Below are positions 1 through 6,000 of a DNA stretch of 64,000 bases, piece after piece; within the stretch, counting starts at the first letter, position 1; every line of letters begins with the position of its first letter. The stretch covers positions 62,001-126,000 of the forward strand of contig NW_026862677.1 in the NCBI RefSeq assembly GCF_026571515.1, in the 5' to 3' direction. The DNA is from Ruditapes philippinarum (taxonomy: Eukaryota). Made by a program: the position numbers.

Positions 1-3000
1 GGGAATGTTTAAAAATCATTTTTAGGAAGTAAAAACATAATATGAATGGGAAATCAATGCATGGTCAAAAAATATGCTGCCCTCATAGAGGGAAGAAAAT
101 TACAATAATTATTATGTTAATATAATTATATTTCATTCTGTCATTGTCATTGCAAAGACAGAACTCTGCTCATACCCCAGGGAACTGCTACACCACATCA
201 AGATCAATTAATGGGGGAGTGCATAATTATCAGTATGCTTGACTATAGATTACTGGAGGTTACGTACCACGGAGGATACGTACCAGGAGGTTACGTACCA
301 TTTTTGGAGGTTACGTACCACTTATATATTTTGGAGGATACGTACCATATATATAATTTATATAAAATACAAATAATATAGAGCATAACAATTATAAAAA
401 AAGGACCGAATTATAACTTTAATATTACTTTTTAAAAATCACATAAGAGCAATTAATATAAATGCAAACGTTTTACCGATATCTATGTATGATTATCACA
501 CATTCAGAAATGAGTAATCTAACAAATCACAAACAAATTGCAAACTATTGACATATGAGTGAATACACTGATTTATAATTGCAAGTCTCCGTTAAGTAAT
601 ACTGATTTTTTAAAATGAAATTTTGCGGCGATCAACTTTTACAGAAAGCAAGCATGCATAATTTCTTTCTTAATAAGAAAACTTATTAATATTTAATTTC
701 AGGTTGTTGACAACTCGCAATAAGAAGTAGACCACCTTTAAGTTCCAGCAATGTTACACGGCACTACGAGTGCTGTAGCTGACATGATGGAAGTCGAGCA
801 ACGGCTGGCACATATTTTTAAAAATACTTGTTAATTGTGTATTGTTGTTTCATTTCAGAGCGTGTAACATAATTATTGTTATTTTCATTTTATGCACGGT
901 TCAGTTAACGTGTAAATGAAACTTAATGTAATGTATAAATGATAAAATATGTAACGCTTGTTTAGTTTTTTTTATTCAAGGTAAGTAATTTTGTCCGGTA
1001 TATTAACATGCATATTATTATTGCTTTTGATTATTTTGTTTATTCAGTTAATTTCAGTTAAATGCGTATAAATAAAACAATAATACTATAAATGAAAAAA
1101 AAATGTTTGTTTTTTTATATATTAGCTGTGGTTTGTTTCATTGTACTGTTCATTTCAGTTTAGTGCGTGTAATTATATTAGTGTTATTAATTATTTTAAG
1201 TTTGGTGTTGTAAATAAAACTTGTTATTATCGTTAATTGCGGTTTGTTGTTTATTCTTATATATTCATACATATTTAATCTCATTACAAAATACAATTAA
1301 TGCGCGAATTTGAACAATAAACGTGATATAGTTTCACACCTTATCCCTTATTATCACTTTATTATATATTTCTATAGTGGTACGTAACCTCCAAAAATGG
1401 TACATTTATGCAGTGGTACGTAACCTCCAAATTCCTGACTATATATATGCCTTTATTTCTTCAGGGGCTTGAAATAGAACTTAAAGGTTTCTTCAAATGT
1501 TCGATTTTTAATAGTATTAATATCAGTTTTCTTCCAATGCCAGAATGCTTCACTACAAAACCTAAAAATCTCTTTGTGTAACTAAATATCTTAAAACAAA
1601 CAATGTTTAGTATTTCTTTCAACTATTTCTTTAAAGATACCTGAATAATTAAATTACAGGTAAGATTTACCTGTATTTTATAAAAAGCATTTTCCCCAGT
1701 GAACATTTTATGCATTAATTTTAAATTTTCATTTTATAACCTTTTTTTAATTTGATTAATACTTACTAATTTCCAATAACACTACTTTTGTCGAAATTTT
1801 GTGCTCCTGGTAATCTCTTTAATTCCTGATGTTGTGCGACAGAAAATCCAAAATAACTATTATCCGGTCCTTCTTTAATCACTGGAATAACAGTGTCTAA
1901 ATTAAATCCTAAAACTGTCACTAAATGTATACATAAAATTACACAGGTGTGTAATAAATTTATATTAGGACACTCCGCCATTATCTGTTAGGTGACAATT
2001 TAGTGTCGCACCTGTTCACGAGCAAAAATAAGATTAATTTTCAGCTCCACATAAAATATATTTCAAGCATATAAGAACAAAAAATTATGCAATAATACTT
2101 ATTTGATTTAAATTATCCAACACACTGAGGATACAATCGCATTGTATTGTGTTCAATGACACTACACGCTCCTGAAAATATGTGTTTTAGCAAGAGTTGT
2201 CTCCCTTTGACAATGTCGCAGAGGGCGTCAACTTAGCTAGTTACTTCCGGGGAAAAATGTCAACAAGACAAAGATGTGACATGTAAATGGAAAATATATT
2301 TTAAATAGTAGAACATATCGCAATAAGAATTCGAAGAAAATGTTATCAAACTTAATTAAAGTACACCAAGCCAAACAGTCGGCGAGAAAAGAGAGACAAG
2401 GTAGAATTGTCACATGTTTTCGCGAGTTTAAAATTATTATGATAGATATCTTTATCCATGGTCAAAGGTAATTTGATGTGAAAAAATATTTTCCAGAATT
2501 TAGTTAGATTGTTCTTCCCCTTGACAGTTCCTTCCATTACTTTTCCTATCCATTTGTTTGTGCTACTTCATGATTTCACCAACTATTAAACAAGTACTGG
2601 ACCCCTGACATGCCATGACATTTAACAGGCCAATGAGATTAATTCTTTATGTACAGTCACCCGCAACAATATGAAAAGAAGGTAGCCCTGCAAATACCGA
2701 CAATATGTCGGTCAAAAGCTATACATAGCTTATGTTTTTGTAAAATGTTATATATGTATACCGACAATAAATAAATTTTGATTTGATTTGAGTGCTAGGC
2801 CTAGGGGCTCATGCAAAATATCCAGGGACACTGTCCAAGACTCAAACATGTAATGAAATCTTCCTCGTTGTTAATGTCTACACACTGAAAAAAGATAGTA
2901 TGAAAAACGACAAGCCCGCTGTCAAGCATAGATGTTGTTGAATGTTGTGATACTGAAAGAATTTGTTTAAAAAAAAAGATTTTATTAAGTGACATAGGCC

Positions 3001-6000
3001 TGACATTATTTTCACTGCTGTTGAAAAGACTACTTGCTTATAAAGCAATATTGAGTAATTAAACTGAAAATCAACACATAAAAATTGATATTTTTTCATT
3101 ATTTGTTTGCTTGTTTTTGTTTGCAGAGAAAAAGAAAAGAGAAGCAATAATTGCAGCATCTGCACTAACTCATTCCCTGGTGGATCACCTGAATATAGGG
3201 TATGAAACTTAAATACAAACTTAAGATTTATTAAATAATTTTAATTATGTCTTATTCTGCTAGCGGCAACTGAATCCACCAATGCAACCACTGCAGACCA
3301 GAATCAGCTGGTATATCTACTGTAGGCACTGGTCGCTATTCAAAATCTGTTAGTACTGTGAACTGTGTGAACAGTGCCTACAGTGAAATTTTAAAAAAAT
3401 CCCTAAATGATGAATAATTTTATCCATATTTAAAGATGGACTTGGCTATTTAGGATATTTAGCAGGTTAAGGGTTAATTTGGACATAATTATACTTATAA
3501 TAAAACCATAAGCTTACAGATTGATAATAAAATTATAACCAGTTTGATTGTACAGGTACAAGTACATGTTATAGGCTTTATCATGTACAGTTAAACATCT
3601 GTTATACAATAGTGATATTCATTGTAAGAATTAAAACAATTAAAATGTTCAAATACAAATGTTTATGTATCATAACATTTTTCAAAATATAAGCAAGTCA
3701 AGAATAATGATTTTTCTTATCTTAAATGCTAATATTATTTATAATCCTAAAGTGATCCATTTCTTATTTCTATATAATTATGTGTAATTGAAAATAAATT
3801 GATAAGCCAACAAAAATTTAGTGTAATTTAATTTGATTTGTTTCAGAGTTTCAAGTGTATATATATGTCACCTTTTTTTGAAACAAAGAGTCTATTAGAG
3901 TGATTAGAAAAAAAAAATGACTTGATTTCTTTCAGAGTGGCAAATGCATATGTGAACCAGAAAAAGCTGGATACTGAAACAAAGATTCTGCAAGCCAATG
4001 CTGCTCAGTTTTCAAAGCAAACAACACAGTGGCTCAAACTGGTGGAGGATTTTAATACAGCTTTAAAGGTTTGCTTTATAATAGACACATACTCATGATG
4101 ATTAAACTTACATAGCGGTGGCATACTGTACTGTACAGGCATCTGCGTTTCAACCCATGGAATGGTGGTGGTGGTGGTAGTTTTCATGGCAGTAAGCCAA
4201 AGTGAATTTACCAGAGCACAGTTTACCCATCTATGCTGTTATATGCTGTCAAGCAGTTTACCAGTACTAGTTGCCTTCACTTTTGCAAGGAGCTGATAAC
4301 TTCTGTACATGCAACAGCAGAGGTACAGTGTGAATGGTAGTAGAAAGGATTTTATGATCAATCTCAACGAAAGTGATTTGCACCATTTGGGAATTGAACT
4401 CGGGTTGTCCGAATCCCAGTCCAACGCTCTAGGTATTGAGCTAACCAAACAGTTCAATCCTTGGAATGTGGTTCCATCACTTTATTTAGTGAGTCTGGGA
4501 GTCAGACACTGGAAGCATTTATATGAACAAGTATTTTATAATATTAATAAATGTGATACATGAACTTGCTTTTACTATAGGGCTCCAATAAATATGATTA
4601 ACTAGGATGCATAATTATTTACAATAATTATTATTGTACTGAAACATTACATGTTGTTGGCAATTTTCTGAATGTTACATTTTTTTTGTAAGATTTTAAA
4701 TATGTTTTATAAAAGTTCTGTAATAGTTCTGTTTTGATTGGGTTGTAAGTCAAAAGAAATATGGTAAAGATTATTATGGTAACTTTCCAGCTTTACTGGT
4801 AGAGAATGATAGACAAATGATAGATTATACCAAAATCACTTGCATGAATGCCAAAAAAATCATCTACCTTTTGTTTGATACCAGGGTAGTTTCATCATTA
4901 TAAGAATTAAACGTCTCTGGTAAGATTTGAACCCACAACAAATAGGGACAAGTGATTCTAAGACTATGATCATTGCCATTCAAAAATATTTGTTAATAGC
5001 TTGACTGTTCAAAGAATAGGGAGAGCTATTGTACTCTTGTCAATGTTGGTGTGCCGTCAAAATTTGGTTAAGTTTAAGCAAGCAAGTTGATTATGATATA
5101 ATCTCCAAAGCTGCTGAATAGTATGAGTTGAAACTTCACATATTTGTTCTCTGTGATTATCTATGTATTTCAGTTTGTTTTATCTTTACTTACAGGAAAT
5201 AGGGGATGTTGAAAACTGGGCAAAAAGTATTGAAACAGATATGAGGACTATATCAAGTGCCCTGGAATACACATATAAAAGAAGTAAGTCAGTCAAAGTT
5301 TTTTTAACCTCGACCATGCTAAATTTCTTAAATAGACATATCTGTCTTTCATGGACTAATAATATCTATCATGTTGCAGTTAAGATTGGAATATCTGTCC
5401 TGAGGGGACCTGCCCATGGACAGGTACTCAATGGCAGATATTCTAATCTGAAGCACAAAAAGACATTTCCCTATTTTCAGATATTTTTTTCTTGTATATA
5501 CCTACATATTCTATTATAATTTAAGTTCTCTTCCTCAATAAATCAATTTTTCATGAACACTTATGTCAATTTTTCTTACAAATTAATAGCGTAAGTATTT
5601 ACAACTTCGTTCATAAGGCTGCAATGTTTCATTTTTAATAAAGCCGAAATTATGTCATTTTAACACTGTTCATTTATGGACTAAAATGTCACCATTGTAT
5701 AGCACTTGAAAGCAATGCAGTAAGACTACCTGAAATATGTTAAACATTTATTTTTTTCTTTCAGATGAAAGTTAGCCATAAGACTAGAGATCTGTGATAC
5801 ATATTTTAGTTGTAATGGTTGAAAATCACATAGTTCAGAGAACAGATACTTTGACTGTTAACCCAACTTTGGATATATTAAAGCTATGGAAAGACAGTTG
5901 CAAAGATACTTTGAAGGTTGAAAAAAAACTCTTAAAATCAGACAAAGAAGGATTTGTATGTACATTTCCTAATTACTCACAAACTTTGTATTGTACAAAA

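What the first reader, a model, noticed from the sequence alone, without database searches (positions are those of the whole stretch)
1767..5775. Integrin alpha and BLOC1S1 head-to-head, with PYM1 nearby: possible microsynteny shared with human 12q13.2
Seen: divergent ATGs 358 bp apart, and PYM1 about 50 kb away. Recalled knowledge: human ITGA7 lies head-to-head with BLOC1S1 at 12q13.2 with PYM1 (WIBG) in the same neighbourhood. The exon-1 peptide here resembles the PS1/alpha3-6-7 class that includes ITGA7. Inference: this may be an ancestral bilaterian gene pair kept together by a shared bidirectional promoter.
Basis: partly seen in the sequence, partly recalled or inferred. Interest (0 to 1): 0.68.

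Follow-up and report, generated by a model that had tools for sequence, protein, structure and literature searches.

The report
Ancient integrin–BLOC1S1 head-to-head gene pair
In this bivalve-like genome a laminin-receptor-type integrin gene and the small trafficking gene BLOC1S1 start back to back 358 bases apart, an arrangement that also seems to be kept in many other molluscs, worms and mammals, so it is a real but fairly ordinary example of anciently conserved gene neighbourhood.

Summary
Exon 1 of an integrin alpha gene lies on the minus strand (1981→1767). A five-exon BLOC1S1 gene lies on the plus strand (2340–5775). Their start codons are 358 bp apart. A two-exon PYM gene lies 48–53 kb away on the BLOC1S1 side.

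The exon-1 peptide alone cannot be assigned to an integrin class. Its closest relatives are the Mya and Dreissena "integrin alpha-6-like" proteins. Those belong to the alpha-PS1/alpha-3/6/7 class by names, solved-structure scores and a tree that follows the species tree.

Six of these contigs are 0.26–1.4 Mb, and the locus tags are consecutive in Potamilus. A cattle gene list gives PYM1 … BLOC1S1, ITGA7.

So this is an ancient microsyntenic pair, a known kind of feature. The shared-promoter mechanism, invertebrate deuterostomes and ecdysozoans, and a tree rooted with a PS2 outgroup remain untested. No other 12q13.2 neighbour was found in the window. Interest is modest.

The parts
1767..1981 (-). 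Integrin alpha (PS1/alpha-6-like orthologue) coding exon 1: start codon, signal peptide and the start of the first FG-GAP blade. It ends in a split codon. The rest of the gene lies beyond the window's left end.
   Evidence: 71 aa, P0001; 63% identity to Mya arenaria integrin alpha-6-like (5e-17) and 58% to Dreissena; the exon ends exactly where the Mya and Dreissena proteins continue; no further integrin-like ORF in 1-1766. No Pfam match for this exon alone.
1982..2339 (.). 358-bp stretch between the divergent start codons; candidate shared or overlapping promoter region.
   Evidence: sequence. G+C 0.33 and CpG observed/expected 0.93, against 0.65 for the whole window. TSS positions are unknown. 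AG-ended pyrimidine-rich stretches upstream of the integrin ATG (read) leave room for an upstream non-coding exon.
2243..2250 (-). CCGGAAGT, an ETS/GABP-type core motif about 90 bp upstream of the BLOC1S1 ATG.
   Evidence: 3 matches in 64 kb against 0.45 expected, and 0 of 100 shuffles reach 3. One of the three lies here. The link to bidirectional promoters is recalled knowledge and the motif was picked after seeing the sequence.
2340..2400 (+). BLOC1S1 exon 1 (20 codons + 1 base).
   Evidence: aligned to the N-termini of six BLOC1S1 proteins. No Pfam hit alone (20 aa).
3127..3199 (+). BLOC1S1 exon 2 (split codons at both ends).
   Evidence: in-frame part 3129-3197; alignment.
3936..4068 (+). 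BLOC1S1 exon 3.
   Evidence: GCN5L1 PF06320, 2e-16; 72 BLOC1S1 proteins at E<=0.001, up to 98% identity.
5196..5283 (+). BLOC1S1 exon 4.
   Evidence: GCN5L1 PF06320, 7.7e-11, profile positions 83-113 of 114.
5765..5775 (+). BLOC1S1 exon 5: the last three codons plus the TAG stop. This boundary was chosen by eye from an AG acceptor and the reading phase.
   Evidence: It is the least certain exon, because homologues differ at the C-terminus.
55373..55464 (-). PYM (partner of Y14 and Mago) coding exon 1, holding the Mago-binding motif.
   Evidence: Mago-bind PF09282, 8.6e-16, profile positions 1-27 of 27.
53898..54390 (-). PYM coding exon 2, including the stop codon.
   Evidence: The reading phase joins the split codon from exon 1. 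No Pfam family for this part. Its likeness to the vertebrate PYM C-terminal part is recalled only.

Best explanation
The region holds the 5' end of the single laminin-receptor-type (alpha-PS1/alpha-3/6/7 class) integrin alpha gene of a heterodont-bivalve-like genome. It sits head-to-head with the housekeeping gene BLOC1S1 (a subunit of BLOC-1/BORC), with start codons 358 bp apart.

This is an anciently conserved microsyntenic pair. It was present at least in the lophotrochozoan ancestor. Because mammals have ITGA7 next to BLOC1S1 with PYM1 further along on the BLOC1S1 side, it was most likely present in the protostome-deuterostome ancestor too.

The most likely reason it persists is an inference, not a result. 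The two core promoters share or overlap in a few hundred bases. Any breakpoint between the genes would therefore damage at least one promoter, and the mutational target for a harmless break is tiny. PYM at 50 kb is probably a looser remnant of the same ancestral neighbourhood. The genes in between (DNAJC28-like, Mab-21-like, MTG1-like, TRIM-like, a LINE) are not shared with the mammalian block.

My confidence by step:
- The genes and their arrangement: about 0.97.
- PS1-class orthology: about 0.85.
- A lophotrochozoan-wide pair: about 0.85.
- A bilaterian-ancestral pair: about 0.7.
- Promoter sharing as the cause: about 0.35.
For: Gene identities.

Class of the integrin:
- The exon-1 peptide ranks Mya (63%, 89 bits) above Dreissena (58%, 75 bits) and Potamilus (57 bits) among the 120 listed integrins. 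109 of the 120 were hit.
- In one search, 68 of the 120 best homologues of the Mya protein carry a class-informative name. All 68 are alpha-PS1, alpha-6-like, 'multiple edematous wings' or ITGA7-type. None of the 120 carries a PS2, alpha-V, alpha-5, alpha-8, alpha-4 or alpha-9 name. Another 20 have generic names and 32 have none.
- Against solved structures, the 627-residue alpha-6 headpiece scores 317.6 bits with Mya. Headpiece chains of similar length score 210.7 (alpha-4), 179 (alpha-5) and 163 (alpha-V).
- Dreissena gives 302 bits for the alpha-6 headpiece against 217 for the alpha-4 headpiece.
- A tree of 40 named proteins follows the species tree: Mollusca 99*, Arthropoda 100*, Deuterostomia 99*. 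Mya+Dreissena+Mactra (100*) are sister to the unionids (100*). This fits one-to-one orthology rather than a mollusc-specific paralogue.
- In the oyster, exactly one of eight alpha chains falls in the laminin-binding branch (PMC7390872, passages).

Linkage:
- Small scaffolds: Physella 260,898; Lamellibrachia 266,219; Potamilus 307,567; Lingula 446,148; Batillaria 720,895; Lottia 1,366,631.
- Larger contigs (9-108 Mb): Bulinus, Tubulanus, Liolophura, Owenia, Haliotis asinina, Mya, Littorina, Mytilus edulis.
- Locus tags are CHS0354_022534/022535 in Potamilus and BaRGS_00031657/00031662 in Batillaria.

Mammals: a cattle BTA5 gene list reads ...PMEL, PYM1..., MMP19..., DNAJC14, ORMDL2, SARNP, GDF11, CD63, RDH5, BLOC1S1, ITGA7, METTL7B (PMC9498432, passage). 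PYM is therefore on the same side of BLOC1S1 as in the window.

Kind of feature: Irimia et al. 2012 (PMC3514665; abstract, sections 4 and 5, and passages) report 595 such pairs. They are enriched in 5'-5' orientation (54.8% in human) and best kept in slowly evolving genomes such as Lottia and amphioxus.

Promoter hints: an ETS-type core motif 90 bp upstream of the BLOC1S1 ATG, and CpG observed/expected of 0.93 against 0.65 for the window.
Against: - The exon-1 peptide alone does not favour the PS1 class (alpha-5 20 bits, alpha-4 19.6, alpha-V 17, alpha-6 15.6).
- For the Potamilus orthologue, the full alpha-V ectodomain (297 bits, 1048-residue chain) outscores the alpha-6 headpiece (285 bits, 627-residue chain) in raw bits.
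- No PS2, alpha-4/9 or PS3 outgroup could be put in the tree, so PS1 monophyly was not tested.
- 'Same contig' is inferred from equal contig lengths. For the eight chromosome-scale cases this shows only a shared chromosome.
- Orientation and the number of intervening genes are unknown everywhere except for the consecutive tags in Potamilus. The Batillaria tags differ by five.
- In Capitella the two proteins sit on different contigs (437,240 and 2,234 bases; the latter a partial model).
- No invertebrate deuterostome or ecdysozoan could be examined.
- A chicken paper lists ITGA7* and CD63 on chr33 but BLOC1S1* on chr23. Both symbols were assigned by the authors' own BLAST (PMC13064311, passages). 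This is a possible exception in birds and is unresolved.
- The human head-to-head orientation is recalled only.
- The promoter mechanism has no direct evidence. TSSs are unknown, possible splice acceptors upstream of the integrin ATG would allow a distant 5' exon, the CpG enrichment is modest, and the ETS motif was chosen after reading the sequence.
Confidence: 0.6

Rival explanations
1. The pair is ancient but is kept by neutral inertia, not by a shared promoter. Lophotrochozoan and vertebrate genomes rearrange slowly. A gap of a few hundred bases offers almost no room for a breakpoint. So the adjacency survives without any co-regulation.
For: Irimia et al. report that retention of such pairs tracks overall genome conservatism: Lottia and amphioxus keep 448-492 pairs, flies 46 and nematodes 12 (PMC3514665, section 5). 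Nothing in the window shows co-regulation. BLOC1S1 is a ubiquitous trafficking gene and the integrin a tissue-patterned receptor (established knowledge), so they are not obvious co-expression partners. CpG enrichment of the gap is modest.
Against: In gene-order randomisations the same paper found on average 0.015 conserved pairs per species (section 4), so long-term retention is not expected by drift alone. Conserved pairs are enriched in 5'-5' orientation and short gaps. Linkage holds in 14 of 15 species spanning four phyla. A tiny target is itself a form of promoter-overlap constraint, so this rival shades into the main explanation.
Confidence: 0.22
2. The pair is kept as a regulatory block. 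Enhancers of the developmentally patterned integrin lie inside or beyond BLOC1S1 (a 'bystander' gene). Breaking the neighbourhood would cut the integrin off from them. The close promoters are incidental.
For: This is the second mechanism documented for conserved pairs (PMC3514665 abstract). BLOC1S1 has introns of 0.7-1.1 kb that could hold elements. PYM staying on the same side in mammals and in the window would fit a wider constrained block.
Against: Such blocks typically centre on transcription-factor or developmental-regulator genes (abstract), which an integrin is not. Most genes between BLOC1S1 and PYM differ between the window and cattle. No conserved non-coding sequence could be examined.
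Confidence: 0.12
3. The integrin is not the PS1-class orthologue but a PS2-type or lineage-specific paralogue. The likeness to the ITGA7-BLOC1S1 pair would then be a coincidence of family, not of gene.
For: The exon-1 peptide alone scores best with alpha-5 and alpha-4. The Potamilus orthologue has alpha-V as its top raw score. No outgroup was in the tree. Oysters carry six lineage-specific alpha chains (PMC7390872).
Against: - 68 of 68 class-informative names among the 120 best homologues of the Mya protein are PS1/alpha-6/alpha-7 type.
- The alpha-6 headpiece outscores every headpiece-length chain of other classes for Mya and Dreissena. For Potamilus it scores 285 against 221 for the alpha-4 headpiece.
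- The tree mirrors the species tree from echinoderms to insects.
- Exon-1 identities fall off in the order Imparidentia, Unionida, others.
Confidence: 0.05
4. The mollusc and mammalian adjacencies arose independently by chance.
For: Invertebrate deuterostomes and ecdysozoans were not examined. Fly and nematode are recalled not to have the pair.
Against: The two genes are unrelated, so tandem duplication cannot recreate the pair. Linkage is seen across molluscs, annelids, a brachiopod and nemerteans. Gene order including PYM's side matches cattle. Randomised genomes give about 0.015 conserved pairs.
Confidence: 0.02

Closest known systems
Mammalian ITGA7-BLOC1S1 (... PYM1) block, human 12q13.2 / cattle BTA5
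   Same: An alpha-3/6/7-class integrin lies next to BLOC1S1, with PYM1 further along on the BLOC1S1 side (cattle order in PMC9498432; window order). The head-to-head orientation in human, and PYM1 lying on the opposite strand to BLOC1S1, are recalled and match the window.
   Different: In mammals the genes between BLOC1S1 and PYM1 are RDH5, CD63, GDF11, SARNP, ORMDL2, DNAJC14 and MMP19. In the window they are DNAJC28-like, Mab-21-like, MTG1-like, two TRIM-like genes and a LINE. None of the mammalian set was detected. The window's J-protein is DNAJC28-type, not DNAJC14. The vertebrate integrin is one of three ohnologues; the bivalve gene is the single pre-duplication orthologue.
Conserved ancestral microsyntenic pairs (CAMPs) of Irimia et al. 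2012, PMC3514665
   Same: Unrelated neighbouring genes kept together across phyla, mostly 5'-5', with short gaps, and best retained in slowly evolving genomes such as molluscs.
   Different: The main text never mentions integrin, ITGA or BLOC1 (0 occurrences). [quoted passage not shown]
Laminin-binding invertebrate integrins: oyster Cg-alpha-1, Drosophila alpha-PS1 (mew)
   Same: They belong to the same orthology group as the Mya and Dreissena proteins that the window's exon 1 matches. The oyster has a single member in the laminin-binding branch, and it binds laminin in vitro (PMC7390872, passages). PS1 clade definition: PMC1145181 (passages).
   Different: Only 71 residues of the window's protein are available, so ligand-binding features cannot be read. 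That fly mew is not next to Blos1 is recalled, not checked.
Classical bidirectional-promoter pairs (head-to-head genes less than 1 kb apart, e.g. COL4A1/COL4A2)
   Same: Divergent orientation with a gap of under 1 kb, measured here between ATGs. An ETS-type motif is present. About 10% of mammalian gene pairs are said to be arranged this way (abstract of PMC2194621, search listing).
   Different: TSSs are not mapped here and co-expression is unknown. The COL4 pair consists of paralogues (PMC12141075, search listing only), whereas these two genes are unrelated.

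Membership tests
BLOC1S1 / GCN5L1 (Pfam PF06320) | Match to the GCN5L1 profile above the curated cut-off | tested here: met
   exon-3 ORF 60.7 bits and exon-4 ORF 42.7 bits, against a cut-off of 23.9. Profile positions 36-85 and 83-113 of 114.
BLOC1S1 / GCN5L1 (Pfam PF06320) | Full-length colinearity with known BLOC1S1 proteins of about 120 aa | tested here: met
   four exon peptides, aligned separately, tile six lophotrochozoan BLOC1S1 proteins. Single-residue gaps fall only at the split codons, and identity to the oyster protein is 65-89%; 72 proteins hit at E<=0.001.
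Integrin alpha chain | FG-GAP beta-propeller, thigh/calf domains, transmembrane helix and GFFKR motif | not testable with these tools
   The window holds only exon 1 (71 aa), with no Pfam hit. The matched Mya and Dreissena proteins carry PF01839, PF08441, PF20805 and PF20806 (precomputed) and a GFFKR motif.
Integrin alpha, PS1 / laminin-binding clade (alpha-3/6/7, alpha-PS1, ina-1) | Closest relatives are PS1-class chains rather than PS2, alpha-4/9, PS3 or I-domain chains | tested here: met
   Tested on the orthologues, not on the window's peptide; 68 of 68 class-informative names among the 120 best hits; the alpha-6 headpiece is the top score. One search is mixed: the full-length alpha-V chain is slightly above the alpha-6 headpiece in raw bits.
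Integrin alpha, PS1 / laminin-binding clade (alpha-3/6/7, alpha-PS1, ina-1) | Placement inside the PS1 clade in a tree rooted with other alpha classes | not tested
The tree holds PS1-class rows only. It follows the species tree, which fits orthology but does not test the clade.
   alpha-5 20 bits, alpha-4 19.6, alpha-V 17, alpha-6 15.6. The peptide does not discriminate between classes.
PYM (partner of Y14 and Mago) | N-terminal Mago-binding motif (PF09282) | tested here: met
   58 bits against a cut-off of 20.6, covering the whole 27-position profile.
Conserved ancestral microsyntenic pair (sensu Irimia et al. 2012) | [quoted passage not shown] | tested here: inconclusive
   - Window: 0 intervening genes.
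- Potamilus: consecutive locus tags.
- Batillaria: tags five apart.
- Cattle: adjacent in a gene list.
Bidirectional-promoter gene pair | Divergent transcription start sites less than 1 kb apart, driven by one shared region | not testable with these tools
   The ATGs are 358 bp apart and divergent. TSSs and expression are unknown. Possible acceptor sites upstream of the integrin ATG leave an upstream 5' exon open.

The most novel reading that the evidence does not exclude
The 358-bp gap is a true shared bidirectional promoter that has coupled expression of the laminin receptor with a BLOC-1/BORC endolysosomal trafficking subunit since before the protostome-deuterostome split. The pair would then be a functional unit (receptor plus its recycling machinery) rather than a passive neighbourhood. 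After the vertebrate genome duplications, ITGA7 would be the ohnologue that kept the ancestral regulatory context.
Probability: 0.12. Interest if true: 0.6.

Novelty: new member of a known kind. Interest (0 to 1): 0.35.

Why it matters
It is a clean and apparently undiscussed example of an ancient 5'-5' gene pair. No paper in the searched library links BLOC1S1 with microsynteny, with a bidirectional promoter, or, as GCN5L1, with integrin alpha and head-to-head (0 papers each). The 12 papers that name BLOC1S1 and ITGA7 together look from their titles and abstract openings like gene-list studies. I read passages in three of them.

It has three practical uses:
- The BLOC1S1 neighbour is a synteny anchor for calling the true alpha-PS1/alpha-3/6/7 orthologue among the many lineage-specific integrins of molluscs.
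- It suggests that, of ITGA3, ITGA6 and ITGA7, the ITGA7 locus kept the pre-duplication neighbourhood.
- A 358-bp gap is small enough to test directly whether promoter sharing, rather than inertia, preserves such pairs.

It does not change what is known about genome architecture. About 600 such pairs have been described.

Tried and rejected
I used the locus tags and contig lengths already printed.

It was replaced by scanning all 339 stop-free ORFs of at least 38 aa outside the annotated genes as alignments A3-A5. Only one marginal DUF4029 match turned up (3.4e-4, taken as chance). No RDH5, CD63, GDF11, SARNP, ORMDL, DNAJC14, MMP19, DGKA or CDK2-type domain was found. Exons shorter than 38 aa would be missed.

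3. A second integrin exon in 1-1766: none was seen. That stretch holds a MITE-like element.

4. Rfam and tRNA scans of the window found nothing.

5. Pfam on the integrin exon 1, BLOC1S1 exon 1 and the PYM last exon gave no hits. One reference (3128-3199) was in the wrong frame; the correct frame is.

6. Classing the exon-1 peptide directly against solved structures was not discriminating.

7. Literature searches:
- BLOC1S1+microsynteny, BLOC1S1+'bidirectional promoter' and GCN5L1+'integrin alpha'+head-to-head each gave 0 papers.
- ITGA7+GCN5L1 gave 1 paper, which was irrelevant.
- BLOC1S1+ITGA7 gave 12 papers.
Supplementary tables of Irimia et al. 2012 and of later synteny surveys are closed. 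They may already list the pair.

8. A tree with a PS2 outgroup was not made.

9. Rejected idea: that the J-domain gene in the window corresponds to DNAJC14 of 12q13.2. It carries the DNAJC28-specific domain PF09350.

Every exon was handled on its own, so full-length identity values for the window's own proteins are not given.

Full report
**What is there.** The window is AT-rich (about 32% G+C), holds no N and is clearly not human. Its best protein matches are to bivalves.

On the minus strand an ATG at 1981 opens a 71-codon exon. It encodes a signal peptide and the start of an integrin alpha beta-propeller, and it ends at 1767 before a GTAAGT donor. On the plus strand an ATG at 2340 opens BLOC1S1. 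I read this gene as five exons: 2340-2400, 3127-3199, 3936-4068, 5196-5283 and 5765-5775. The two ATGs are 358 bp apart, and the finding's coordinates are exact.

Each exon was treated on its own.

**Are they real genes?** Yes.
- The ORFs holding BLOC1S1 exons 3 and 4 match Pfam GCN5L1 at 2e-16 and 7.7e-11.
- Aligned separately, the four larger exon peptides tile six lophotrochozoan BLOC1S1 proteins from first to last residue. Gaps fall only at the split codons.
- Exon 3 alone finds 72 BLOC1S1 proteins at E<=0.001.
- The integrin exon has no Pfam hit. It does match Mya arenaria integrin alpha-6-like over its whole length (63% identity, 5e-17) and the Dreissena orthologue (58%). The exon ends exactly where those proteins continue.
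- No further integrin exon lies in 1-1766, so the rest of the gene is outside the window.
- PYM is confirmed. The exon at 55464→55373 (minus) matches the Mago-binding motif at 8.6e-16. It splices in phase to 54390→53898. That places PYM 48-53 kb from BLOC1S1, on the BLOC1S1 side.

Against solved structures the exon-1 peptide scores alpha-5 (20 bits), alpha-4 (19.6), alpha-V (17) and alpha-6 (15.6), which does not discriminate. The class follows from orthology instead.
- Among the 120 integrins, 109 were hit by the peptide. It ranks Mya above Dreissena above Potamilus.
- Of the 120 best homologues of the Mya protein, 68 carry a class-informative name. All 68 are alpha-PS1, alpha-6-like, 'multiple edematous wings' or ITGA7-type. 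Another 20 have generic names and 32 have none. None has a PS2, alpha-V, alpha-5, alpha-8, alpha-4 or alpha-9 name.
- Against solved structures the 627-residue alpha-6 headpiece is the top hit for Mya (317.6 bits). Headpiece-length chains of alpha-4, alpha-5 and alpha-V score 210.7, 179 and 163. It is also the top hit for Dreissena (302 bits).
- For the Potamilus orthologue the full alpha-V ectodomain (297 bits) slightly exceeds the alpha-6 headpiece (285 bits) in raw score. The comparison is therefore good but not airtight.
- A quick maximum-likelihood tree of 40 named proteins follows the species tree: Deuterostomia 99*, Arthropoda 100*, Mollusca 99*. Mya+Dreissena+Mactra (100*) are sister to the unionids (100*). 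This is what a single-copy orthologue should show, not a mollusc-specific expansion.
- In the oyster, one of eight alpha chains sits in the laminin-binding branch and binds laminin (PMC7390872, passages). The PS1 and PS2 clade definitions come from PMC1145181 (passages).

However, the tables print the length of the contig that carries each protein, and locus tags for some.
- Fifteen species appear in both tables.
- Six of the 14 are small scaffolds: Physella 260,898; Lamellibrachia 266,219; Potamilus 307,567; Lingula 446,148; Batillaria 720,895; Lottia 1,366,631.
- Eight of the 14 are contigs of 9-108 Mb: Bulinus, Tubulanus, Liolophura, Owenia, Haliotis asinina, Mya, Littorina and Mytilus edulis.
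- The exception is Capitella, where BLOC1S1 is a partial model on a 2,234-base contig.
- In Potamilus the locus tags are consecutive (CHS0354_022534 and 022535). In Batillaria they are five apart.
- Nine further species had a BLOC1S1 hit but no same-species integrin among the 120 listed, so they could not be compared.

Equal length is taken to mean the same contig; that is an inference. For the eight large contigs it shows only a shared chromosome. The six small scaffolds, from three gastropod lineages, a unionid bivalve, an annelid and a brachiopod, argue for tight linkage across Lophotrochozoa.

For mammals, a cattle list gives PYM1..., MMP19..., DNAJC14, ORMDL2, SARNP, GDF11, CD63, RDH5, BLOC1S1, ITGA7, METTL7B (PMC9498432, passage). 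PYM is on the same side of BLOC1S1 as in the window.

A chicken paper places ITGA7* with CD63 on chr33 and BLOC1S1* on chr23. Both symbols were assigned by the authors' BLAST (PMC13064311, passages). This may be an exception in birds, and I could not resolve it. Invertebrate deuterostomes and ecdysozoans stayed unchecked.

**The rest of the neighbourhood.** Apart from PYM, nothing else in the window matches the mammalian block. The window holds:
- a DNAJC28-type J-protein gene (PF09350, not DNAJC14) with a nested Mab-21-like ORF;
- an MTG1-like GTPase;
- two TRIM-like ORFs;
- a LINE, and satellites.

All 339 stop-free ORFs of at least 38 aa outside these genes gave only one chance-level Pfam match.

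**How it most likely works.** Irimia et al. (PMC3514665; abstract, sections 4 and 5, and passages) describe 595 conserved pairs of unrelated genes.
- They are enriched in 5'-5' orientation and short gaps.
- They are best kept in slowly evolving genomes such as Lottia.
- They are explained by shared regulation or by enhancer-bearing bystander genes.

This pair fits that kind. I favour a promoter-overlap constraint. The gap is ten times shorter than any other intergenic distance I read in the window. It carries an ETS-type CCGGAAGT core about 90 bp upstream of the BLOC1S1 ATG (3 matches in the window against 0.45 expected). Its CpG observed/expected ratio is 0.93 against 0.65 for the window.

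These are hints only. TSSs are unknown, and AG-ended pyrimidine tracts upstream of the integrin ATG would allow a distant 5' exon. Neutral inertia and a bystander-type block remain live rivals.

**Novelty.**
- BLOC1S1 with microsynteny or with 'bidirectional promoter', and GCN5L1 with integrin alpha and head-to-head, each gave 0 papers.
- Twelve papers hold BLOC1S1 and ITGA7 together. From their titles and abstract openings they look like association, copy-number or expression gene-list studies. I read passages in three of them.
- Irimia et al.'s main text has no mention of integrin, ITGA or BLOC1. Their pair lists are in closed supplements and may well include this pair.

I therefore rate it a new (or at least undiscussed) member of a known kind, of modest interest.

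**Verdict.**
- The pair is real.
- The integrin is very probably the PS1-class orthologue.
- The linkage is old: Lophotrochozoa-wide, and probably bilaterian.
- The bidirectional-promoter explanation is plausible but untested.

Noticed in passing
window 249-355 and 1365-1431 (element about 249-1431): MITE-like insertion in integrin intron 1. Its terminal inverted repeats are built from sub-repeated GGAGGTTACGTACCA units; one arm pair of 28 nt is 100% complementary.
   Followed up: partly
window 9010-23853 (-), with 16107-18227 (+) inside: A DNAJC28-type gene is spread over about 15 kb (J domain 1.1e-10, DJC28_CD 7.9e-19). An intronless 707-aa ORF with a Mab-21 C-terminal domain and a weak TPR match lies on the opposite strand, nested in its intron.
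   Followed up: partly
window 28789-29727 (+): Single-ORF MTG1/YlqF-like ribosome-associated GTPase (MMR_HSR1 8.5e-17). It lies roughly 5 kb from the DNAJC28 J-domain exon and in divergent orientation. The naming as MTG1 is recalled from the sequence pattern, not tested.
   Followed up: no
window 31727-33472 (-) and 43834-45579 (-): Two paralogous intronless 582-aa ORFs with B-box zinc fingers and weak NHL/coiled-coil signals (TRIM-like). They flank a LINE whose reverse-transcriptase reading frame is split into three ORFs (35747-38925, minus).
   Followed up: partly
window 50426-52050 and 52600-53328; also 11305-12264 and 12939-14079: A 165-bp satellite (9.8 copies, 92% matches) and related arrays lie just downstream of PYM. 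A 46-bp array of about 25 copies and a 145/291-bp array lie in a DNAJC28 intron.
   Followed up: no
window 48850-49450: The most CpG-rich stretch of the window (G+C about 0.53, CpG observed/expected about 1.9). It is built of palindromic units around CGCTAATTAGCG. There is no Rfam family and no Pfam hit for its ORFs. Nature unknown, possibly a transposon end.
   Followed up: partly
window 60669-60765 and 61000-61400: A second CCGGAAGT core is followed about 80 bp later by an AAAATGGCGGCG string (YY1-like; recalled) and a CpG-rich block. This could be the promoter of an unrecognised gene. No ORF of at least 38 aa in 55.7-64 kb has a Pfam match.
   Followed up: partly
window 3937-4068 (BLOC1S1 exon 3) and P0192: The window and the Mya arenaria BLOC1S1 share an N-for-Q change in the otherwise near-invariant VAQAY stretch of the family. 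This is a small marker that fits a heterodont-bivalve origin of the window.
   Followed up: no
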